Assembly (NCBI GenBank): GCA_964655065.1
Contig: CAZZLC010000019.1
Location: 1 to 64,000 of the forward strand
Source: an uncultured Enterobacteriaceae bacterium
GTDB lineage: Bacteria > Myxococcota_A > UBA796 > GCA-2862545
Direction: 5' to 3'
DNA: 64,000 nt
Shown: one piece after another, positions 12,161-45,234 of the stretch
Numbering within the stretch: the stretch's first letter is position 1
Layout: each line of letters starts with the position of its first letter
Position numbers and translations under genes: made by a program
Notes under the pieces: generated by a model
The model's input: the letters and a program-made list of their open reading frames with translations, nothing else
Told to the model about the DNA's origin: nothing
Databases searched by the model: none

Positions 12161-13189
12161 TCACCGCGTCTCCTCGTCCCAGCCGATGACCACGAGCTGG
12201 TTGTCCGCGACGGCGGAGACGGAGGTGAGAGAACGGTTCTCGCCCAGCAGGAAGAACGAGGTGCGCTCGTCGAGCTCGATGCCGCAGGCGTCGGGAGCCG
12301 CTCCCCACGCGCCGCCGTCGCGACGGACGAGGAGGCGCCGTGCGTAGCCCGACAGCAGCGCGACCTCGACCATGGCGACCTCGGTGTGGGCGCTCGCGGC
12401 GGTCCGGTAGGGCAGCGCGAGGGGGGTCGTGGGCGGGACCGAACCCTCGGGGGCGAGCGTGAGCAGCGACAACGGCGCATCGGGGGGCTCACGCTCGACG
12501 ATGGCGCCGTCGAGGTCGATCCAGGCCAGCTCGGTCGCGTCGGAGCCCTCGAGGTTCAGGAGCACGCCGAGCTTGCCGGGGGTCGACACCAGCGCCTCGA
12601 CGGCGACGATCGGCGGTAGCGCGGCGAGGGCCGGAGCACCCACCTCCAGTCGGGTCACCCCGATCGTCGGTGCGGCCTCCAGACCCGGGTAGACCTCCTC
12701 CGCCACGTAGGCGAAGCCACTCTCGGCCGCGTCGTCGCAGGAGGCCGCGGCGTACGCGGGCACGAGCGTCGGCTCGAGGCTGCAGGTCCAGGCAAAGGCC
12801 TCCCGCGCCGGCAGCTTTCCGGGGTGGCTCCCCGCGAGGCGCACGTCGACGGTGAAGTCCTCGCCGGGCACCCGACCGGTGAGCACCTGCTGGTCGAACG
12901 CGTGGCACAGCTCGTGGCGCAAGGCGGTGGCCATCTGCTCGGGCTCGTCTTGCCCCACCCAGATGTTTCGGCGCACCGATCGGTAGCGGCCCTCGACGCG
13001 CCAGTCGCGCACCGACCACACCTCGACCTTGGTGAGGCAGAGCTCGGCCGGAGCCGAGGCCCGAGCAAACGTCTGCCAGACGTCGTCGAGCGTGGACTCC
13101 TCGATTGACGAGGCGCCCGTCACGGGCAGCGTCTCGGGGTCGTCGGAGCAGACCTGGGAGCGGCACGCCACCAAGAGAATCGCGATCAT
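12161..13189 (-). CDS. lipoprotein with HExxH (zincin-like) motif, putative metallopeptidase
   Basis: ATG at 13189 overlaps the upstream stop (ATGA). Lipobox 'LLVACRS'; 'RHELCHAFD' contains an HExxH motif. The rest of the 624-aa ORF is junk. Confidence 0.65.
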   Translation of the reverse strand: MIAILLVACRSQVCSDDPETLPVTGASSIEESTLDDVWQTFARASAPAELCLTKVEVWSVRDWRVEGRYRSVRRNIWVGQDEPEQMATALRHELCHAFDQQVLTGRVPGEDFTVDVRLAGSHPGKLPAREAFAWTCSLEPTLVPAYAAASCDDAAESGFAYVAEEVYPGLEAAPTIGVTRLEVGAPALAALPPIVAVEALVSTPGKLGVLLNLEGSDATELAWIDLDGAIVEREPPDAPLSLLTLAPEGSVPPTTPLALPYRTAASAHTEVAMVEVALLSGYARRLLVRRDGGAWGAAPDACGIELDERTSFFLLGENRSLTSVSAVADNQLVVIGWDEETR

Positions 13190-37791: not shown

Positions 37792-37814
37792 TTACCGATC
37801 CCTACCGATCGGTA
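37792..37814. promoter_or_regulatory. putative TetR operator: perfect 12-bp palindrome TACCGATCGGTA preceded by a direct half-site repeat TTACCGATC
   Basis: The palindrome at 37803-37814 lies 17 nt upstream of the tetR ATG, inside the divergent intergenic region shared with the DAACS transporter gene. Confidence 0.4.
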
Positions 37815-37830
37815 GAGGCGCAAGGGAACG

Positions 37831-38412
37831 ATGACGGTGAGTGGCGTTCGAGCCAGGATTTTGGAGGAGGCCGTGCGGCTGTTCTCTCGCAACGGCTACG
37901 GCTCGACGTCGGTCCGCGAGGTCGCCGAGGCGGCCGGAATCACCAAGCCGACCCTCTATTATCACTTCGGCAGCAAAGAGGGCCTGTTCGAGGCGCTCAT
38001 CGACCACCACCTCACGGGCCTCGAAGCTCTCGTGGGCGAGGCGGTGACCTCGGCCGGGGGGGTGGTCGACCGCATCCGGACCTTCGCGAAGACCTACCTT
38101 CTCGGAGCCGCGGAGGAGGCCGATGCGCTGCGCTTCCTGCTCACCTGCAGCCTGCCGGACACCCGGGACAACGCAAACCCCCATTGTGGGGTGTTCGGGC
38201 GTGTCTTGCAAATCGTGACTCCGCTGCAGGACGTGATCCGCCAAGGAGTCACCAGCGGCGAGCTGCGGCGGGATCTCGATCCCGAAGTCGCGGTCTTCGC
38301 CCTCGTGGGTGCTCTCAACCTCCACCTCGCAGCGGCCCTCGAAGGTCGCGCGGTGCGAGGCGACACCGTCGATTCGATTCTCAACCTCTGGTTCCGTGGA
38401 GTGGCGGCATGA
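37831..38412 (+). CDS. TetR-family transcriptional regulator
   Basis: N-terminal HTH 'ILEEAVRLFSRNGYGSTSVREVAEAAGITKPTLYYHFGSKEGLF'. Stop overlaps the start of the membrane-fusion-protein gene (ATGA). Confidence 0.85.
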   Translation: MTVSGVRARILEEAVRLFSRNGYGSTSVREVAEAAGITKPTLYYHFGSKEGLFEALIDHHLTGLEALVGEAVTSAGGVVDRIRTFAKTYLLGAAEEADALRFLLTCSLPDTRDNANPHCGVFGRVLQIVTPLQDVIRQGVTSGELRRDLDPEVAVFALVGALNLHLAAALEGRAVRGDTVDSILNLWFRGVAA

Positions 38413-39491
38413 TCCCGCTCGTGCTTTCTTTTTTCGCAGGGTGTGCCGTCAATGCCGAGCAGGCATCGAACACGGTGACGCCGGGGAAGCTCGCTTCAGC
38501 GACCGCCGCCCGCGTCGAGGTCGTGGTCCTCGAGTCGGGTGAGGCCAAGCTGGAGCTCGACCTGCCCGGCGAGGTCGGAGGCGAGCGTGACGCGAACCTC
38601 GCCGCGGCCAACGGCGGCTACGTCGAGCAGGTGTTCGTGTCCGACGGCCAGGAAGTCACGGCTGGCCAGGTCCTCGCCTACATCGACGCCTCGCTCTACC
38701 GGGCCCAGCTCGACCAGGCCACCGCGCAGCTCGAGCAGGCGGAGGCCGAGCTCTCGCGAGTCGAGAAGCTCGGCGACCTCGCCAGTCAAGCCCAGATCGA
38801 CGGTGTCACGACCCAGGCCAAGGTCTCCCGCGCGTCGCTCCGGCAAGCCCAGACCCGGCTCGCCCGAGCCGTCATCCGCGCGCCGTTCAGCGGGGTGGTG
38901 GCCGATGTGGCCGTCGAGGCCGGCGAATCCGTGGGACCGGGCACGCCGGTGATTCGCGTGGTCCAGCTCGACCCCGCGGTGGTGAACCTCTCAGTCGCCG
39001 ACCGAGACGTCGTCTCGCTCGAGCGGGGCATGCCGGTCGAGGTCACCGCCGCGTCGCGGTCCGAGACGTTCGACGGCACCGTCTCCCGGGTCTCGCCCGT
39101 CGCCGACCTGCGCACCCGTTCGTTCCCCGTCGAGGTCGAGGTCCCGAACGAGCGACGGCTCCTGCTGCCGGGCATGATCGCCCGGGTGAAGGCCGAGCGC
39201 CCTCTGTTCGAGGACGCGATGGTCATCCCGCAGGACTGGATCGTGACCAAGCGGGACCGCCGCGGTGTCTTCGTGGTCGAGGAGAACACGGCGGTGTGGC
39301 GCGACGTGAAGCTCGGCGAGGTCCTGCACGATCGCGTGCTCGTCACCGACGGGCTGGCCGCCGGCGACCGGGTCGTGGTCACCGGTCACCGCGATCTGGT
39401 CGACGGCGACGCGCTCGTCGTCTCCCGCGAGGGCCGTTGCTGTAGCGACGGTCGCACCACCTTTGGCAACCAGGTCGAACGGGAGCCCTGA
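38409..39491 (+). CDS. efflux RND periplasmic adaptor (membrane fusion protein), lipoprotein
   Basis: ATG at 38409. Lipobox 'LSFFAGCAV', followed by a coiled-coil hairpin ('YRAQLDQATAQLEQAEAELSRVEKL'), a lipoyl/beta-barrel region and a C-terminal 'VVVTGHRDLVDGDALVV'. Confidence 0.85.
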   Translation: MIPLVLSFFAGCAVNAEQASNTVTPGKLASATAARVEVVVLESGEAKLELDLPGEVGGERDANLAAANGGYVEQVFVSDGQEVTAGQVLAYIDASLYRAQLDQATAQLEQAEAELSRVEKLGDLASQAQIDGVTTQAKVSRASLRQAQTRLARAVIRAPFSGVVADVAVEAGESVGPGTPVIRVVQLDPAVVNLSVADRDVVSLERGMPVEVTAASRSETFDGTVSRVSPVADLRTRSFPVEVEVPNERRLLLPGMIARVKAERPLFEDAMVIPQDWIVTKRDRRGVFVVEENTAVWRDVKLGEVLHDRVLVTDGLAAGDRVVVTGHRDLVDGDALVVSREGRCCSDGRTTFGNQVEREP

Positions 39492-42400
39492 TGCGTTCCG
39501 CCATCCACTGGCTCGTCACGCACCCCACCACGATCGCGATTGCAGCGATCTGCGTCTTCCTCTTCGGGCTCAACTCCTACGTGAGCCTGCCGCGGGAGTC
39601 GTCGCCCGACATCACGATCCCCGTCGTGATCGTCACGACGCCGTACGTGGGGGTTTCGCCCGAGGACATCGAGTCCCTCGTCACCGTTCCGATGGAGAAC
39701 GAGCTCGCCTCGCTCAAGAACACCAAGGAGATGAGGTCGACGTCGGCCGAGGGCATCTCGATCGTCGTCATCGAGTTCGAGCCCGACACCGTGGTCGAGG
39801 ACGCCCTGCAGCGCGTCCGTGACCGGGTGGGACGGGTGCGTCCGACCTTGCCGGCCGACGCCGAGGATCCCTCGGTGCGGGAGATCTCGTTCTCCGACGT
39901 TCCGGTCGTGCTCATCACGCTCGCAGGACCGGTCGGCGAGGCGAAGCTGAAGGAGCTGGCCGAAGACCTCCAGGACGACCTCACTCGGGTGCCCGGGGTG
40001 CTCGAGGTCGAGCTGACCGGCGGCACCGAGCGCCAGATCACGGTGGAGGTCCTGCCCGAGCGGCTCTCGTACTACGGGTTCTCGCTCGACGACGTCACGA
40101 GCGCGATCAAGAACGAGAACGTCAACATCCCCGGCGGCAACATCGAGACCGGTCGCGGGAACTTCCTCCTCCGCACGCCCGGGGAGTTCGACGAGGCCCG
40201 CGAGGTGGAGCGCGTCGCGGTGAAGCGGGTCGGTGACCGTCCGGTGTTCGTCCGTGACCTCGCCCGCGTGGTCGACGGGTACGAGCCTCGGGAGACCTAC
40301 TCTCGACTCCGCGGCGAGGCCTCGGTGTCGCTCGCCATCAAGAAGCGGGCGGGCGCCAACATCCTCGACGTGACCACCATGGCCAAGGAGCTCGCCGAGG
40401 AGCATGCCCAGCGCTGGCCCGAGACCGTGAGCTGGCGAGCGCTCGGCGACCAGTCGAAGGCCATCCGCGACATGGTCAGCGACCTGCAGAACAACATCAT
40501 CACCGCCTTGCTGCTCGTCGTCGGCGTGATCGTGATGTTCATGGGCTGGCGACCGAGCGTGTTCGTGGCGGTGTCCATCCCGCTGTCGATGCTCGGCAGC
40601 ATGCTGGTGCTCGAGGTGCTGGGCTTCACGCTCAACATGGTGGTGCTGTTCAGCCTGATCCTCGCGCTGGGGATGCTCGTCGACAACGCAATCGTCGTCG
40701 TCGAGAACGTCTACCGTCACAAGGAGATGGGCAAGGACAACATCCAAGCTGCGGTCGACGGCACCGAGGAGGTCGCGGTCGCCGTCGCGGCGAGCACGGC
40801 GACGACCGTGGCCGCCTTCCTCCCGCTCGTGTTCTGGACCGGCATCATGGGCGAGTTCATGGGGTTCCTGCCCAAGACGGTGATCATCGTGCTGATGATG
40901 TCGCTCGTGGTCGCCGTGGGTGTGCTTCCCGTGTTGATGGGCCGGCTTCTGCCGCAGCAGGTGGACGCGAAGGACCTGAAGGACGGCGAGCTCCGCAACG
41001 CCGAGCTCGACCCGATCATGGACCGCTACCGGACGTTCCTCCGGAGCTCGATCCGATGGCGCTACTCCACGTTTGCCATCGGGGCCTCGGCCTTCCTCGT
41101 CACCTTCGGGATCTACTGGTTCCTCAACCACGGCACCGAGTTCTTCCCCTCGACCGAGCCCGAGCGAGCCATCGTGGGGGTGCAGCTGCCGCAGGGCTCC
41201 GATGTCGACACCACCGACCAGGTGGTGCGCGCCGTCGAGCTCGTGCTGGCTTCGGAGGCCAACGTCGACACCTGGGCGGCCGACGTCGGCGTGAGCTCGG
41301 GCGGAAACCAGCTGCAGGGCTCGAGCGCGCGGCCAAACGAGGCGCGCGTCACCGTCGACTTCCTCCCCGACCGGAACACCGCCAAGCCCGGCGAGGCCCA
41401 GCGTATCGAACCCACGTCGCTCACCGTCGACCGACTCCGCGCGAAGCTGCAGGAGCTGCCCGGGGCCAAGATCACGGTCGAGCCACAGGTCATGGGGCCG
41501 CCCGTCGGCAAGGACATCAACATCGAGGTCTCGGGCGAGGACTACGACGAGATCGGGGAGATCGTGCTCAAGCTGCGCCGCGAGCTCGAGAACACCGTCG
41601 CCGGACTCGCCGACGTCGACGACAACTACGGGGTGGGCCGACCCGAGCTGCGGCTGCGCATCGACCGCGGAGCCGCCAAGCGAGTCGGGGTCAGCACGGC
41701 GTCCATCGGCAACGCGGTCCGCACCGCCATCGCGGGCGGGGTGGCCACCACCCTGCGCGAGGGTGAGGACGAGATCGACATCGTGGTGCAGCTCACCCCG
41801 GAGTACCGGGAGGATCTGCAGCGCGTCCTCGATCTCCGTCTGCCCGGCCGCGAGGACACCAGCCCCGACACCTTCCCCGTGCCCATCTCCGCCGTGGCGT
41901 CCTACGAGCTCGTCGGAGGGTCGTCGGGCATCAACCACATCGACCAGGACATGGTCGTGACCATCACGGGCGACGTCGCCGAGGGCTTCAACGCCAACGA
42001 GGTCCGGGGCGACGTCCAGGCGTTCCTCGACGGGTACGACTTCCCGAGCGGGGTGACCACCGCCCTCACCGGGGCCAACGAGGAGCAGGACGAGTCGCTG
42101 CAGTTCCTGGTTCGAGCCTTCTTCATCGCCGTCGCGTTGATCCTGCTCGTCCTGGTGACCCAGTTCGACAGCATCACCATGCCGGCGATCATCCTCGCCA
42201 CGGTGGTGCTGTCGCTCATCGGCGTGCTGTGGGGGCTGCTGGTCACCGGGACGCCCTTCGGCATCATGATGACGGGGATCGGCGTCATCTCGCTCGCCGG
42301 GGTCGTGGTCAACAACGCGATCGTGCTTCTCGACTACGTGCAGCAGCTCCAGGGCAGGGGGCTCTCCACGGAGGAGGCGCTGGTCGAGGCGGGGCTCACC

Positions 42401-44041
42401 CGCTTCCGCCCCGTCATGCTGACCGCGATCACCACCGCGCTCGGGCTGCTCCCGATGGCGCTCGGCGCCTCGTTCGACTTCTTCGAGCTCAAGCTGATCC
42501 TGGGCAGCAACTCGGCGGCGTTCTGGGGCCCCATGGCGATTGCCGTGATCTTCGGGTTGTCCTTCGCGACGGTGCTCACCCTGGTGATGGTGCCCGTTCT
42601 GTTCAGCATCAACGAGGACCTTCGCCACCGCTTGTTCCCGCGCCGCGCCGCCGCGACCGTCGCGGCCGCGATCCCGTTCGCCCTGCTCGTGCTCGTGCCG
42701 AGCGACGCGCGCGCGCTCACGCTGGACGAGGCCTGGCGCGCGGCGGAGCAGGAAGACCTCTCGCTCCTCATCGCCAAGGAGGACCTGGTCCAGACGAGCA
42801 CCCTCGTCGGCCAGGCCTGGGCGACCCTGTCGCCGACCCTGGCGACCAGCGCGACCTACGTGATCAACAACCAGGAGATCGTGCTCGACTTCGACGCGAG
42901 CGAGCAACAGCGGCAGCTCGGCGAGGCGCTGAACCCCATCCTCGAGTCGGTCGGCCAGCCTCCCGCGCTGCCCACCGAGAACTGCGGCCCCAACGAGACG
43001 CCGGACGGCGATTTCTGCCTCGAGCAGGGCGAACCCATCGTCGTGCAGGAGCAGTTCTTCTGGCAGGGCGACATCACGCTGCGGCAGACCCTGTTCAGCG
43101 GCGCGGCGTTCCCCGCCCTGCAGTCCGCCCAGCGTCTCACCGCCGCTGCGCGAGCCGACGTCCGCGATGCCACGCTGCGCTCCAAGGCCAACGTGGCCCG
43201 AGCCTACTACGGGCTGCTCGCTGCCCAGCAGGGGGTCCGGGTGTCCGAGAAGGCGCTCGACCTGGCGACCGCGCAGCTCGAGCTCGCCCAGCGTCGGCGG
43301 GACGCCGGGATCACCGACCGTCGCGCGCTCGTGTCCGCGCAGCTCGGGGTCAGCCAGGCGCAGCGCGATCTCGAGTCCGCACGCGAGGGCCTGGTCGACG
43401 CCGAGACCTCGTTCGAGCTCCTCACCGGGCTGCGCGACCAGTCCCTCGAGATGCCTCCGCCCTTCGTGGTCCCCGCCGAGCTCGACTCGGCGGTGTCCAC
43501 GGCGCTCGCCCAGCGCCCCGATCTGCAGGCGGCCGAGCTCCGGGTCCGCGCCCTCAGGGCCGAGAAGGTCGCCCAGAGCATGCGGTGGATGCCGCGAATC
43601 GACGGTATCGGCTCGATCGACTTCACCCAGAACGTCGGGTTCAACGACCGGAACACGACCTGGCGCATTGCGCTCACCGCGTCCTGGGACATCTGGGACG
43701 GCGGGTTTCGCATCGCCGACCGGCGCAACGCCGCGAGCCGCATGCGGGCGGCGCAGTATGCCCAGCAACTCCAGGAGCGGCAGGCCGAGCGCGAGGTGAA
43801 GGTCGCGTTCGAGTCCCACCGTCGCGCCCTCGCGGCCGTGGTGGCGGTCGAGGACGAGCAGTCGCTCGCCGACGAGAACCTCCTGCTCACCGAGCGGAGC
43901 TTCGAGGCAGGCAGCGCGACCTGGCTCGAGCTCGAGCAGGCTCGGCTCCAGGTGGAGGCCACGGCGCTGTCGCTGCTCCAGGAGCGCACCGCCCGCGACC
44001 TTGCCGCGATCGACCTGCTGGTCCGGACCGGCGCCCTCTGA
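39491..44041 (+). CDS. RND efflux transporter (AcrB-like, 12 TM) fused in-frame to a TolC-like outer membrane factor domain (1516 aa)
   Basis: Residues 1-~1045 are a typical HAE-type RND pump, with conserved 'LGMLVDNAIVVVENV' and 'GVVVNNAIVLLDYV' TM4/TM10 blocks. Residues ~1053-1516 are collinear with OMF/TolC repeats ('LTLDEAWRAAEQEDLSLLIAKEDL...', '...DLAAIDLLVRTGAL'). No stop codon separates them. The junction segment 'RRAAATVAAAIPFALLVLVPSDARA' resembles a signal peptide. Confidence 0.85.
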   Translation: MRSAIHWLVTHPTTIAIAAICVFLFGLNSYVSLPRESSPDITIPVVIVTTPYVGVSPEDIESLVTVPMENELASLKNTKEMRSTSAEGISIVVIEFEPDTVVEDALQRVRDRVGRVRPTLPADAEDPSVREISFSDVPVVLITLAGPVGEAKLKELAEDLQDDLTRVPGVLEVELTGGTERQITVEVLPERLSYYGFSLDDVTSAIKNENVNIPGGNIETGRGNFLLRTPGEFDEAREVERVAVKRVGDRPVFVRDLARVVDGYEPRETYSRLRGEASVSLAIKKRAGANILDVTTMAKELAEEHAQRWPETVSWRALGDQSKAIRDMVSDLQNNIITALLLVVGVIVMFMGWRPSVFVAVSIPLSMLGSMLVLEVLGFTLNMVVLFSLILALGMLVDNAIVVVENVYRHKEMGKDNIQAAVDGTEEVAVAVAASTATTVAAFLPLVFWTGIMGEFMGFLPKTVIIVLMMSLVVAVGVLPVLMGRLLPQQVDAKDLKDGELRNAELDPIMDRYRTFLRSSIRWRYSTFAIGASAFLVTFGIYWFLNHGTEFFPSTEPERAIVGVQLPQGSDVDTTDQVVRAVELVLASEANVDTWAADVGVSSGGNQLQGSSARPNEARVTVDFLPDRNTAKPGEAQRIEPTSLTVDRLRAKLQELPGAKITVEPQVMGPPVGKDINIEVSGEDYDEIGEIVLKLRRELENTVAGLADVDDNYGVGRPELRLRIDRGAAKRVGVSTASIGNAVRTAIAGGVATTLREGEDEIDIVVQLTPEYREDLQRVLDLRLPGREDTSPDTFPVPISAVASYELVGGSSGINHIDQDMVVTITGDVAEGFNANEVRGDVQAFLDGYDFPSGVTTALTGANEEQDESLQFLVRAFFIAVALILLVLVTQFDSITMPAIILATVVLSLIGVLWGLLVTGTPFGIMMTGIGVISLAGVVVNNAIVLLDYVQQLQGRGLSTEEALVEAGLTRFRPVMLTAITTALGLLPMALGASFDFFELKLILGSNSAAFWGPMAIAVIFGLSFATVLTLVMVPVLFSINEDLRHRLFPRRAAATVAAAIPFALLVLVPSDARALTLDEAWRAAEQEDLSLLIAKEDLVQTSTLVGQAWATLSPTLATSATYVINNQEIVLDFDASEQQRQLGEALNPILESVGQPPALPTENCGPNETPDGDFCLEQGEPIVVQEQFFWQGDITLRQTLFSGAAFPALQSAQRLTAAARADVRDATLRSKANVARAYYGLLAAQQGVRVSEKALDLATAQLELAQRRRDAGITDRRALVSAQLGVSQAQRDLESAREGLVDAETSFELLTGLRDQSLEMPPPFVVPAELDSAVSTALAQRPDLQAAELRVRALRAEKVAQSMRWMPRIDGIGSIDFTQNVGFNDRNTTWRIALTASWDIWDGGFRIADRRNAASRMRAAQYAQQLQERQAEREVKVAFESHRRALAAVVAVEDEQSLADENLLLTERSFEAGSATWLELEQARLQVEATALSLLQERTARDLAAIDLLVRTGAL

Positions 44042-44085
44042 TACCGGCATCCCGCACCCGAGGTGGGTGATCCCGGGGAGAGACG

Positions 44086-45234
44086 ATGAAGATCGCACTG
44101 TTCAGCGTGCTGCTCGCTGGCTGCACCCAGTTCGACGCGGTGGAGGATGCCTGTCACCCCGAGGGCCGGGTGCCCGGAGCCGAGGAAGGGACGCTCGAGG
44201 CCTCCGCGATCGATGCGATGAACTGCTACCGCAGGCTCTCGGGCCTCGGCCGGGCCAACGTCGCCTCGACCATCCAGGACGCGCTCGTGGGGCACGCGAG
44301 CTACGTGCTGCAGAACCCGGACGCCGAGCGGGTGTTCGGCCCCGACGGGCCTACCGCCTACCTCGTACAGGATGCGACCGAGCCCGGCTTCACGGGTGCG
44401 CGGGCCGCGACCCGCTTCGATCGCGCCGGCTACGTGTTCACCGACCCCGACGCCGTGTCCGTGCGCGAGGTGCTCTACGTCGCGTGGAGGGGCGCGGGAC
44501 TCCCACTCAACGACGCCGATGGCAACCTGCTGTCCGGGGGGGCAGCGATGGACGAGCTCCTGCGCCGGGCCGACTTCCGCGAGGTCGCGATGCAGCGGTC
44601 GTGGGTCGACGGCGGCTACACCGAGATCGAACTCGACGAGGACTGGTGGGGAAGGTCCGGTCTCTGCGACGTCCGCGCCGACCTCTGCGACAACGGCCCC
44701 CGCGTGCCCCCGGGCTTCGAGGGACGCGCCTATTACCTCGCCGTGGTCCACACCGACCCGCCGGCCCAGCGCACGCTCCTCCCGTTCTCGTTCCCCAAGC
44801 TGGACCAGGTCGCGGTGCCGCTGTTCTCGCCGTCGTTCGACCTCGACGATGCCGACCCCCTCACGGGAGTCGGAGCGTCCGTGCAGATCAGCTACCCCAT
44901 CTCGATCTTCGGCAACGCGTCCGACCCCGAGACCGCCGACCTCGCCGCCCAGAACGTCTACGGCATGTCGTTCGAGAACGCGCGGGTCGCCGACGAAGAC
45001 GGGGTTCGCTACGAAACCCGCGTGGTGCTTCCCGGCGACTCGGCGTCGGGGCGGTACCCCTCGGGCATCAACCTCCGGCGGAGCGCCGCGGTCTACATCG
45101 ACCGGCCCTTCGCGCCGTCGACGACCTACTTCTTCACGGGTGAGCTCACCACGAACGAGGCGATCTACGACGTCGCCTTCTCGTTCACGACCGCGGACGG
45201 CGACGAGGGGCTCCTCCCGGACGGTGCCTTCTGA
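44086..45234 (+). CDS. hypothetical lipoprotein
   Basis: ATG at 44086 with a GGGGAGAG RBS. Lipobox 'LLAGCT'. The 382-aa protein has Asp-rich, non-biased composition. Confidence 0.6.
   Translation: MKIALFSVLLAGCTQFDAVEDACHPEGRVPGAEEGTLEASAIDAMNCYRRLSGLGRANVASTIQDALVGHASYVLQNPDAERVFGPDGPTAYLVQDATEPGFTGARAATRFDRAGYVFTDPDAVSVREVLYVAWRGAGLPLNDADGNLLSGGAAMDELLRRADFREVAMQRSWVDGGYTEIELDEDWWGRSGLCDVRADLCDNGPRVPPGFEGRAYYLAVVHTDPPAQRTLLPFSFPKLDQVAVPLFSPSFDLDDADPLTGVGASVQISYPISIFGNASDPETADLAAQNVYGMSFENARVADEDGVRYETRVVLPGDSASGRYPSGINLRRSAAVYIDRPFAPSTTYFFTGELTTNEAIYDVAFSFTTADGDEGLLPDGAF

What the first reader, a model, noticed from the sequence alone, without database searches (positions are those of the whole stretch)
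39491..44041. Inner-membrane RND pump and TolC-like outer-membrane factor encoded as one 1516-aa polypeptide
Tripartite RND efflux systems normally encode the inner-membrane pump, the periplasmic adaptor and the outer-membrane channel as three separate proteins. Here a canonical tetR-MFP-RND operon ends in a single open frame. A complete 12-TM AcrB-like pump (~1045 aa) is followed, with no stop codon, by a full-length TolC/OMF-like domain (~460 aa, both OMF repeats recognisable). Between them sits a 13th hydrophobic segment that could carry the chain from cytoplasm to periplasm. Either a giant two-membrane fusion protein is made, or a polyprotein is processed.
Basis: partly seen in the sequence, partly recalled or inferred. 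Interest (0 to 1): 0.85.

Follow-up and report, generated by a model that had tools for sequence, protein, structure and literature searches.

The report
RND pump and outer-membrane channel fused
One gene encodes both the inner-membrane drug pump and its outer-membrane exit channel, joined by what looks like an ordinary secretion signal, so the cell most likely makes one precursor and cuts it in two; this arrangement is conserved in many uncultured Myxococcota-type bacteria, and nine full-text searches found no description of it.

Summary
Window 39491-44041 (+) is one stop-free 1516-aa ORF. Residues 8-1040 are a full AcrB-type RND permease (PF00873, E 2.5e-205) with 12 hydrophobic segments. 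Residues 1078-1516 are a full TolC-type OMF with two OEP repeats and a modelled TolC/OprM fold.

It is not an assembly error. At least 120 protein clusters of 1426-1558 aa (one 1269-aa fragment), 51-83% identical, share the architecture. Two lie on 6.9-Mb and 9.4-Mb contigs.

The junction has the features of a Sec signal peptide. It has a basic stretch and an apolar run (median 17 aa). Strict A-x-A occurs in 91 of 119 homologs against 1.8% background. The conserved mature OMF N-terminus (V/L)TL(D/E)EA follows directly. Unfused relatives carry an ordinary N-terminal signal peptide at the same place.

Only about 7 residues (maximum 22) separate the hydrophobic core from the OMF. That is far too short to reach from the inner membrane to the OMF N-terminus at mid-barrel (at least 120 Å). 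In-frame start codons are not enriched at the junction.

Best explanation (inferred, not shown): a polyprotein cut by signal peptidase I after Ala1075. This would give a 13-TM RND and a free OMF in 1:1 ratio.

Verdict: a new variant of a known kind. Nine literature searches found no description. Interest 0.6.

The parts
37802..37815 (.). Perfect 14-bp palindrome CTACCGATCGGTAG, 16 bp upstream of the tetR ATG. It is a putative TetR operator (inferred).
   Evidence: One exact copy in the window; 0.14 matches with up to 2 mismatches expected by chance.
37831..38412 (+). TetR-family repressor gene (193 aa).
   Evidence: (TetR_N, E 4.4e-21).
38409..39491 (+). Periplasmic adaptor (MFP) lipoprotein, 360 aa from ATG 38409, with lipobox FFAG|C. 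Its ATG overlaps the tetR TGA (ATGA). Its TGA overlaps the RND ATG (TGATG, 39489-39493).
   Evidence: (TIGR01730 RND_mfp, E 4e-68, above cutoff).
39491..44041 (+). Single 1516-aa ORF encoding the RND::OMF precursor.
39491..42622 (+). RND permease moiety, aa 1-1044, with 12 TM segments. TM4 carries 'DN' and TM10 'NN', where AcrB has DD and KN.
42623..42715 (+). Internal signal-peptide-like segment, also the 13th TM (aa 1045-1075: RHRLFPRR-AAATVAAAIPFALLVLV-PSDARA). The predicted signal peptidase I site lies after Ala1075, between nt 42715 and 42716. An in-frame TTG at 42632 has GAGGA 13 nt upstream.
   Evidence: AF2 pLDDT is below 50 here.
42716..44038 (+). Mature TolC-type outer-membrane factor, aa 1076-1516 (441 aa), starting LTLDEAW. 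Two OEP repeats. An extracellular-loop insert holds two Cys. The stop codon is 44039-44041.
44086..45234 (+). Conserved lipoprotein of unknown function (382 aa, lipobox LLAG|C). It is found downstream of the OMF in several fused loci and one unfused locus. It may belong to the operon (not shown).
   Evidence: (no Pfam hit).

Best explanation
The gene encodes a polyprotein precursor of two components of a tripartite RND efflux pump.

Inferred sequence of events. Translation starts at ATG 39491, coupled to the MFP gene, and the 12-TM RND permease is inserted co-translationally into the inner membrane. TM12 ends in the cytoplasm. A short basic linker follows. The next hydrophobic stretch (aa 1053-1069) enters the Sec translocon in the in-to-out orientation, exactly as an N-terminal signal peptide would, and starts export of the following 441-aa OMF domain into the periplasm. 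Signal peptidase I cuts at the conserved A-x-A site (ARA|LTLDEAW, after Ala1075). The RND keeps the signal segment as a 13th, C-terminal transmembrane helix. The released OMF folds, trimerises and is inserted into the outer membrane as any TolC-like protein. Mature RND, the lipoprotein adaptor encoded upstream and the OMF then assemble as a conventional tripartite pump under TetR control. The fusion gives strict 1:1 synthesis of pump and channel and removes the need for a separate OMF start codon.

Shown: the single conserved ORF, the domain identities and fold, the signal-peptide-like features, their positional equivalence to real signal peptides in unfused relatives, and the lack of conserved internal starts.

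Inferred: export, cleavage, the cleavage site, the fate of TM13 and the substrate.
For: 1. The fusion is real and selected. The best 120 homologous clusters (51-83% identity, 119 of them with at least 98% coverage) all carry PF00873 plus PF02321. They include genes on 9.4-Mb and 6.87-Mb contigs with the same MFP-RND::OMF synteny. At least 12 species-level MAGs in genome contigs carry it.

2. The junction looks like a signal peptide. Its sequence is poorly conserved, but it always has a basic n-region (median net charge +3) and an apolar run (median 17 aa). Strict A-x-A occurs in 91 of 119 against 1.8% per position background (about 12% for any of 7 positions). It sits directly before the conserved OMF N-terminus (V/L)TL(D/E)EA. 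There is no lipobox Cys.

3. Unfused relatives have a normal N-terminal signal peptide at the homologous place. Examples are L012 MKRFLLTLVGFGLATGTASA|VTLEEA, P0126, P0131 and P0144, and L086 MLTLLLLTGAHA|LTLDEAW. In L086 the RND TGA overlaps the OMF ATG (TGATG), so a 1-nt indel would fuse the frames. In an NJ tree, standalone OMFs intermingle with fused ones.

4. Geometry. Only a median of 7 residues (maximum 22) lie between the hydrophobic core and the OMF N-terminus. All length variation (7-50 aa) is on the cytoplasmic side. The RND periplasmic domain is 70 Å tall. The OMF alpha-barrel is 100 Å long, and the N-terminus emerges at its equatorial middle (PMC8277102). An intact chain would therefore have to span at least 120 Å.

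5. There is no conserved internal initiation. In 14 fused loci, in-frame start codons make up 6.1% of junction codons against 9.0% in the RND body. With an SD-like motif the figures are 1.5% against 1.1%. Three loci have no in-frame start at the junction at all.

6. A lipoprotein MFP is retained and translationally coupled, as expected for a normal tripartite assembly.
Against: No experimental evidence of cleavage exists for any member. No trained signal-peptide predictor was available, so the site is assigned by rule and by homology. The loose (-3,-1) rule alone is uninformative in these Ala-rich proteins, with 68% expected by chance in 7 positions. In this window an in-frame TTG (42632) with GAGGA 13 nt upstream could allow some independent OMF translation. 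AF2 gives no confident structure for the junction. Natural bacterial precedents for signal-peptidase cleavage after a polytopic membrane protein are few. The one I know, Bradyrhizobium FbcH cytochrome b/c1, is from my own memory and was not retrievable here.
Confidence: 0.78

Rival explanations
1. The 160-kDa chain stays intact. One polypeptide would hold 13 helices in the inner membrane and a beta-barrel segment in the outer membrane, giving a covalently tethered two-membrane pump.
For: There is no stop codon, and the frame is conserved in at least 120 clusters. Cleavage has not been shown experimentally.
Against: The periplasmic spacer between the hydrophobic core and OMF helix H1 has a median of 7 residues and a maximum of 22, at most about 25-75 Å fully extended. 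The OMF N-terminus sits at the equator of a 100-Å alpha-barrel above a 70-Å RND headpiece. The conserved A-x-A site would have no reason to persist. Standalone OMFs nest among fused ones with the same mature N-terminus.
Confidence: 0.05
2. The OMF is made mainly by independent translation from an internal start codon within the junction (TTG 42632 in this window). The read-through fusion product would be a by-product that is degraded.
For: The window has an in-frame TTG with GAGGA 13 nt upstream. The unfused relative L086 uses a coupled ATG with a GGAGG.
Against: The GAGGA is formed by the conserved Glu-Asp codons of the RND C-terminus, and the 13-nt spacing is long. Across 14 fused loci, in-frame starts at the junction are not enriched (6.1% against 9.0% of codons). 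Three loci have none, and 7 have none with an SD-like motif. Without a stop codon every ribosome that translates the RND part also translates the OMF. Selection keeping the frame open over junctions of variable length would be unexplained.
Confidence: 0.07
3. The precursor is cut, but by a protease or at a site other than signal peptidase I at A-x-A. Candidates are a rhomboid or site-2 protease within TM13, or a periplasmic protease.
For: Cleavage chemistry is untested. The h-region is at the long end for signal peptides in some members (up to 28 apolar residues).
Against: The feature conserved at the boundary is exactly the A-x-A plus short c-region of SPase I substrates, often with Pro or Gly at -4 to -6. 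It coincides with the signal-peptide cleavage position of unfused homologs. There is no Cys for signal peptidase II.
Confidence: 0.08
4. The fusion is a sequencing or assembly artefact, namely a missed stop or frameshift between separate RND and OMF genes.
For: Close unfused relatives differ by only a 1-nt frame offset (L086), so a single indel error could mimic a fusion in one assembly.
Against: The same fused frame occurs in at least 120 clusters from NCBI, JGI, ENA and Logan assemblies, with junction lengths from 14 to 75 aa. Two of the contigs are 6.9 Mb and 9.4 Mb.
Confidence: 0.01

Closest known systems
Tripartite RND efflux systems of the HAE-1 type (AcrAB-TolC, MexAB-OprM, MdtABC, MexJK)
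   Same: The three components and the operon logic match: a TetR-type regulator, a lipoprotein adaptor, a 12-TM RND permease (best solved matches MdtB and MexK, E about 1e-94, full length) and a TolC-fold OMF.
   Different: RND and OMF are one ORF joined by an internal signal peptide. All solved RND chains matched are 1022-1069 aa and unfused. The proton-relay residues differ: TM4 is D-N rather than D-D, and TM10 is N-N rather than K-N. These are invariant in the family. Scores fall below NCBIfam subfamily cutoffs.
Unfused relatives of the same RND/OMF clade (loci L012, L011, L086)
   Same: They share the 'DN/NN' RND subfamily, the same OMF clade, the OMF gene immediately downstream of the RND, and the same mature OMF N-terminus.
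   Different: A stop codon ends the RND, and the OMF has its own start codon and N-terminal signal peptide. In L086 the two overlap as TGATG in different frames.
Bradyrhizobium japonicum FbcH cytochrome b/c1 polyprotein (from my own knowledge of Thony-Meyer et al., about 1989-1991; not retrieved here)
   Same: It has the same proposed logic. A polytopic inner-membrane protein is followed in one ORF by an exported partner, separated by an internal signal sequence that signal peptidase cleaves.
   Different: The proteins are unrelated. There the released partner stays in the inner membrane or periplasm, whereas here it must travel on to the outer membrane. No homology was tested.
Viral glycoprotein polyproteins processed by host signal peptidase at internal signal peptides (e.g. 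bunyavirus GPC; PMC7926653, seen)
   Same: An internal signal peptide following a membrane-spanning segment directs translocation and signalase cleavage.
   Different: The system is the eukaryotic ER and the proteins are unrelated. This is an analogy only.
Other natural fusions in efflux and RND machinery: fused dimeric adaptor DSY0927 and fused SecDF of Thermus (PMC4446572; PMC8277102)
   Same: They show that components of these machines are occasionally fused.
   Different: Those fusions join parts that sit in the same compartment and stay covalently linked. None joins an inner-membrane component to an outer-membrane one. Neither review mentions an RND-OMF fusion.

Membership tests
RND permease superfamily, AcrB/AcrD/AcrF type (PF00873) | Full-length match to the family profile above the curated cutoff | tested here: met
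   residues 8-1040 match profile positions 5-1019 of 1021, 684.7 bits against a cutoff of 28.
RND permease superfamily, AcrB/AcrD/AcrF type (PF00873) | 12 TM segments with two large periplasmic loops (after TM1 and TM7) | tested here: met
   TM1 is 15-33, TM2-7 span 335-545, TM8-12 span 872-1034, with loops of about 300 aa after TM1 and TM7.
HAE-1 multidrug RND subfamily (AcrB/MexB/MdtBC) | Proton relay Asp-Asp in TM4 and Lys in TM10 (AcrB D407, D408, K940), and Arg in TM11 | tested here: not met
   TM4 is D-N (118 of 120) and TM10 is N-N (119 of 120). The TM11 Arg is kept (118 of 120). The first Asp and the Arg are retained, so proton coupling is still plausible.
HAE-1 multidrug RND subfamily (AcrB/MexB/MdtBC) | Score above NCBIfam curated cutoffs for named subfamilies or equivalogs | tested here: not met
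   the best is NF033617 at 585.5 bits against a cutoff of 1250. MdtB scores 369.7 against 1584.
Outer membrane factor (TolC/OEP, PF02321) | Two tandem OEP repeats above the curated cutoff | tested here: met
   2 stretches, 154.9 bits against a cutoff of 22.
Outer membrane factor (TolC/OEP, PF02321) | TolC fold: 4 beta-strands plus long and short helix pairs per protomer | tested here: met
   the AF2 model (mean pLDDT 82) matches TolC, OprM, CusC and TOprJ1 at E about 1e-16, target-normalised TM-score 0.66-0.81 (top 30 matches), over about 450 columns.
Outer membrane factor (TolC/OEP, PF02321) | Synthesised as a separate pre-protein with an N-terminal signal peptide | tested here: not met
   the signal-peptide-like segment is internal, preceded by 1044 aa of RND.
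NodT/OprM lipoprotein OMF subfamily | Lipobox with Cys at +1 of the mature protein | tested here: not met
   no Cys at +1 in any of the 117 family members scored. TIGR01845 scores 72 bits against a cutoff of 210.
Sec-type signal peptide cleaved by signal peptidase I | Positively charged n-region, apolar h-region, and small residues at -3 and -1 (A-x-A) | tested here: met
   median net charge +3, apolar run median 17 aa, strict A-x-A in 91 of 119 against 1.8% per position background. The window has RR / AAATVAAAIPFALLVLV / PSDARA.
Sec-type signal peptide cleaved by signal peptidase I | Actual cleavage by LepB in vivo | not testable with these tools
   This needs proteomics, N-terminal sequencing or mutagenesis.
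Tripartite RND efflux operon | An adjacent periplasmic adaptor (MFP) gene of the RND_mfp type | tested here: met
   TIGR01730 scores 229.8 bits against a cutoff of 94.9. The adaptor is translationally coupled and conserved in L081 and L082.
Tripartite RND efflux operon | Pump, adaptor and channel encoded as three separate polypeptides | tested here: not met
   pump and channel share one ORF.

The most novel reading that the evidence does not exclude
The chain is not cleaved, or only part of the pool is cleaved. The pump and its exit duct would then stay covalently joined, giving a single polypeptide anchored in both membranes. That would need a tripartite architecture very different from AcrAB-TolC, for example an OMF whose N-terminal helices unfold or a much narrower periplasm at the pump site.
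Probability: 0.05. Interest if true: 0.92.

Novelty: new variant of a known kind. Interest (0 to 1): 0.6.

Why it matters
If the polyprotein model is right, four things follow.

1. It would be the first case I know of in which an outer-membrane beta-barrel protein is made as the tail of an SRP-type, co-translationally inserted inner-membrane protein. That contrasts with the usual post-translational route for outer-membrane proteins.

2. It would be a natural experiment in enforced 1:1 pump-to-channel stoichiometry and in dedicated rather than shared OMF pairing, both debated in the efflux field.

3. The mature RND would carry a 13th helix derived from a signal peptide. This offers a way to study how retained signal segments are tolerated or used.

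4. Current annotation hides the architecture. NCBI names these proteins 'efflux RND transporter permease subunit'. Counts of OMFs in Myxococcota-type genomes are therefore too low, and these OMFs are missed.

The mechanism is easy to test by expression and N-terminal mapping.

Tried and rejected
- Literature. Nine full-text searches, plus 'fused/fusion' look-ups in two large reviews and one Myxococcus transporter census, found no natural RND-OMF fusion. The FbcH precedent could not be retrieved.
- Genome scan. The taxonomic survey is therefore incomplete, and no cultured organism was identified.
- Source record. The exact look-up of the window protein returned no contig. The closest named relatives are Myxococcota MAGs.
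- Loose cleavage rule. The loose (-3,-1) rule is expected by chance in 68% of 7-residue windows in these Ala-rich proteins. I dropped it in favour of strict A-x-A.
- First regex. My first regex for the OMF start mis-placed three sequences, including the query. I replaced it with alignment columns.
- Internal initiation. I tested it and found no enrichment.
- NJ tree. The tree of OMF domains is star-like, so it shows intermingling of fused and standalone forms but cannot count fusion or fission events.
- Representative search. The 50%-representative search returned many fragments, so it could not size the fused family.
- Promoter and terminator scan. It gave nothing useful in this 68-72% G+C region.
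- AF2. It gives no confident conformation for the junction.
Full report
**1. Observation**

The ORF list gives 39491..44041 (+), 1516 aa, with an ATG start. The translation is stop-free, and the DNA across 42400-42900 shows no stop in frame. G+C is 64-72% throughout, with no compositional break at the junction.

- Pfam places ACR_tran on residues 8-1040 (profile positions 5-1019 of 1021, E 2.5e-205). Two OEP stretches lie between 1078 and 1516 (E 2.7e-45).
- NCBIfam agrees. RND permease models cover residues 7-1040. TolC and NodT models cover 1195-1516. All scores fall below the subfamily cutoffs.
- A 19-residue hydropathy scan finds 12 TM segments arranged as in AcrB. TM1 is followed by a loop of about 300 aa, then TM2-7, another loop of about 325 aa, then TM8-12. 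A 13th segment lies at 1053-1071. There are no hydrophobic segments in 1076-1516.
- phmmer against PDB sequences aligns residues 9-1046 to AcrB 6-1042. The best matches are MdtB and MexK (E about 1e-94). Every solved RND chain matched is 1022-1069 aa, so none carries an OMF.
- An AlphaFold2 model of residues 973-1516 (16-sequence alignment, mean pLDDT 82) has the OMF secondary-structure order: short H1/H2, two strands, a 66-residue helix, a 36-residue helix, then the same pattern repeated.
- Foldseek matches that model over about 450 columns to TolC, OprM, CusC, SilC and TOprJ1. E is about 1e-16 and target-normalised TM-scores are 0.66-0.81 for the top 30.

**2. Operon context**

- tetR is 37831-38412 (TetR_N, E 4.4e-21).
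- The adaptor ORF is listed from TTG 38184. Its plausible start is ATG 38409, which gives MIPLVLSFFAG|C, a lipoprotein signal. That ATG overlaps the tetR stop (ATGA).
- The adaptor passes the TIGR01730 cutoff (229.8 bits against 94.9).
- Its TGA overlaps the RND ATG (cccTGATGcgt, 39489-39493), and a GGGAG lies 5 nt upstream.
- A perfect 14-bp palindrome, CTACCGATCGGTAG, sits 16 bp before the tetR ATG.
- The fused ORF ends at TGA 44039-44041. A lipoprotein gene starts 44 bp later.

**3. The fusion is not an artefact**

The full protein was searched against 5.8 billion clustered proteins. The 120 best clusters all carry PF00873 plus PF02321 at 51-83% identity. All but one are 1426-1558 aa with at least 98% coverage; P0021 is a 1269-aa fragment with 83% coverage. 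They come from NCBI, JGI, ENA and Logan assemblies.

Two of them lie on contigs of 9,398,701 and 6,870,412 bp, named '36x' and '35x'. Both show the same (TetR)-MFP-RND::OMF order. A partial scan of one genome per species found fused single-frame ORFs in at least 12 MAGs. These are labelled Myxococcota, Deltaproteobacteria, Oligoflexia, Proteobacteria or 'Alphaproteobacteria HK-STAS-MYXO'.

The junction length varies from 14 to 75 aa among homologs, yet the frame is always kept. The architecture is therefore conserved and under selection.

Source annotations read 'efflux RND transporter permease subunit' (NCBI) or 'AcrB/outer membrane protein TolC' (JGI). Automatic pipelines have thus seen both halves.

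**4. Anatomy of the junction**

In the window the sequence reads ...MVPVLFSINEDLRHRLFPRR-AAATVAAAIPFALLVLV-PSDARA|LTLDEAWRAAEQEDLSL. In the alignment of 119 full-length homologs the segment between the RND end motif and the OMF is poorly conserved in sequence. Its physico-chemical pattern is constant:

- The 12 residues before the apolar run have a median net charge of +3.
- The apolar run has a median length of 17 residues, mostly 13-24.
- A short c-region follows, often with Pro or Gly.
- Strict A-x-A occurs in 91 of 119, against 1.8% per position elsewhere in the same proteins (about 12% for any of 7 positions).
- The predicted site lies 0-2 residues before the conserved (V/L)TL(D/E)EA in 114 of 119.
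- There is no lipobox Cys.

E. coli TolC matures at ...SQA|ENLMQVYQQA (my own knowledge). That is the homologous position.

**5. Unfused relatives**

- L012: the RND ends with a stop. The next gene, in another frame, starts MKRFLLTLVGFGLATGTASA|VTLEEAVAAAEE.
- L011: a single stop separates the RND from an in-frame OMF that has its own Met and signal peptide.
- L086: the RND stop and the OMF start overlap as TGATG, preceded by GGAGG. The OMF begins MLTLLLLTGAHA|LTLDEAW. A 1-nt indel would fuse the frames.
- Standalone OMFs occur without an adjacent RND. P0122 is 52% identical and is found on three contigs. P0130 is another.
- In a rough NJ tree these standalone OMFs intermingle with the OMF moieties of fused proteins, and L011 and L012 branch basally.
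- The RNDs of all four unfused loci share the family's TM4 'DN' and TM10 'NN' signature.

Fused and split states therefore interconvert within one clade, and the mature OMF start is the same in both. This argues that the final products are the same.

**6. Is the OMF translated on its own?**

In 14 fused loci, in-frame ATG, GTG or TTG codons make up 6.1% of junction codons against 9.0% in the RND body. With an SD-like motif upstream the figures are 1.5% against 1.1%. Three loci have no in-frame start at the junction, and seven have none with an SD motif.

The window has TTG 42632 with GAGGA 13 nt upstream. That GAGGA is made by the conserved Glu-Asp codons, and the spacing is long. Internal initiation is therefore not a conserved feature. 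With no stop codon, the OMF is translated by every ribosome that finishes the RND.

**7. Can the chain stay intact?**

The spacer between the 10-residue hydrophobic core and the conserved OMF N-terminus has a median of 7 residues and a maximum of 22. All large length variation (7-50 residues) lies on the cytoplasmic side.

The review PMC8277102 gives the dimensions. The RND periplasmic headpiece is 40 + 30 Å. The OMF alpha-barrel is 100 Å long, with the equatorial domain at its middle. In OprM the N-terminal extremity originates from that equatorial domain. In the model here, H1 and H2 together (36 residues) lead straight up to the first beta-strand, so the N-terminus is mid-barrel.

Even with direct RND-OMF contact, the chain would have to bridge at least about 120 Å. 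Seven extended residues give about 25 Å. An intact chain is therefore incompatible with a canonical assembly. The retained, coupled adaptor gene indicates that a canonical assembly is what forms.

**8. Mechanism proposed (inferred)**

- The RND is inserted co-translationally.
- TM12 ends in the cytoplasm (established AcrB topology).
- The basic linker obeys the positive-inside rule.
- The apolar run enters SecYEG in-to-out, and the OMF is exported.
- Signal peptidase I cuts after Ala1075.
- The RND retains TM13 with a periplasmic C-terminus.
- The OMF proceeds to the outer membrane.

The benefit would be fixed 1:1 synthesis and no need for a separate initiation site. The substrate is unknown. 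The RND is nearest to MdtB and MexK, but its proton-relay signature differs. Confidence is about 0.97 that the fusion gene is real and functional. It is about 0.8 that the precursor is processed at or near the A-x-A site.

**9. Comparison with known systems**

It works like an ordinary tripartite RND pump after processing. It is a member of the RND (PF00873) and OMF (PF02321) families by profile and by fold. It fails two defining features of the HAE-1 subfamily: the DD/K relay and the NCBIfam cutoffs. It also fails the 'separate pre-protein' feature of OMFs.

The nearest mechanistic analogues are the Bradyrhizobium FbcH cytochrome b/c1 polyprotein (my own knowledge; not retrievable) and viral polyproteins cut by signal peptidase at internal signal peptides (PMC7926653). 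Known natural fusions in this field are the dimeric adaptor DSY0927 and SecDF. Both join parts in one compartment and stay linked.

Nine literature searches and three papers gave no mention of an RND-OMF fusion. I cannot exclude an entry in TCDB or InterPro architecture tables.

**10. Verdict**

This is a real, conserved and apparently undescribed gene architecture. Its most likely mechanism is conventional. It is a new variant of a known kind, with interest 0.6.

Noticed in passing
window 44086-45234 (+); also L083 6307-7551, L013 7700-8650, L001 4677-5618, L081 12710-13846: A 382-aa lipoprotein (MKIALFSVLLAG|C) with no Pfam hit lies 44 bp downstream of the fused gene. Homologs (23-37% identity) follow the OMF in several fused loci and also follow the standalone OMF P0122. 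It could be an OMF-associated lipoprotein. A lipoprotein partner of E. coli TolC, YbjP, was recently described (bioRxiv 10.1101/2025.03.19.644130, seen; PDB 9tg4). No relationship to YbjP was tested.
   Followed up: partly
window 39491-42622, aa ~400-410 (TM4) and ~938-945 (TM10): The RND moiety has LVDNAIVVVEN in TM4 and VVNNAIVLLD in TM10. Asn replaces AcrB D408 and K940. These residues are invariant in 118-119 of 120 fused homologs and are also present in four unfused relatives. This defines a distinct RND subfamily with a one-Asp proton relay.
   Followed up: partly
window 37802-37815: A perfect 14-bp palindrome, CTACCGATCGGTAG, sits 16 bp upstream of the tetR start codon. It is a likely operator for autoregulation of the operon. 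A 2-mismatch copy lies at 12973-12986.
   Followed up: partly
window 38409-38412 and 39489-39493: tetR/MFP (ATGA) and MFP/RND (TGATG) overlap stop-to-start, which points to translational coupling along the operon. The mechanical ORF start of the MFP (TTG 38184) is probably wrong. ATG 38409 gives a lipoprotein signal, FFAG|C.
   Followed up: yes
window ~42900-43060 (aa ~1138-1190 of the ORF): The first extracellular loop of the OMF carries an insert of about 50 aa with two Cys (TENCGPNETPDGDFCLEQ), possibly a disulfide-bonded surface loop. Only 7 of 119 homologs have two Cys in the OMF part, and AF2 confidence is low there.
   Followed up: no
L083 5001-6278 (P0122), L087 2460-3767 (P0130), L086 253-1554 (P0140): Standalone OMFs of this clade have unusually short predicted signal peptides (9-13 aa, e.g. 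MLTLLLSLPARA, MLVAFVICATAGA) with no basic n-region. They look as if they derive from a fused or translationally coupled ancestor whose n-region was supplied by the RND tail.
   Followed up: partly
L011 3109-6342 and L026 3-2516: Two unfused distant relatives have RND proteins that already end in an extra hydrophobic segment after TM12 (e.g. ...LKRILLTIGIILAILMAYVLITGLSAMNG*). This is followed by a separate OMF with its own signal peptide. A 13th helix on the RND may therefore pre-date or be independent of the fusion.
   Followed up: no
window 39386-44098 (-): A 1570-aa stop-free ORF runs antisense to the whole fused gene. I take it to be the usual by-product of about 68% G+C and strong codon bias on the sense strand, not a gene. 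It was not examined further.
   Followed up: no
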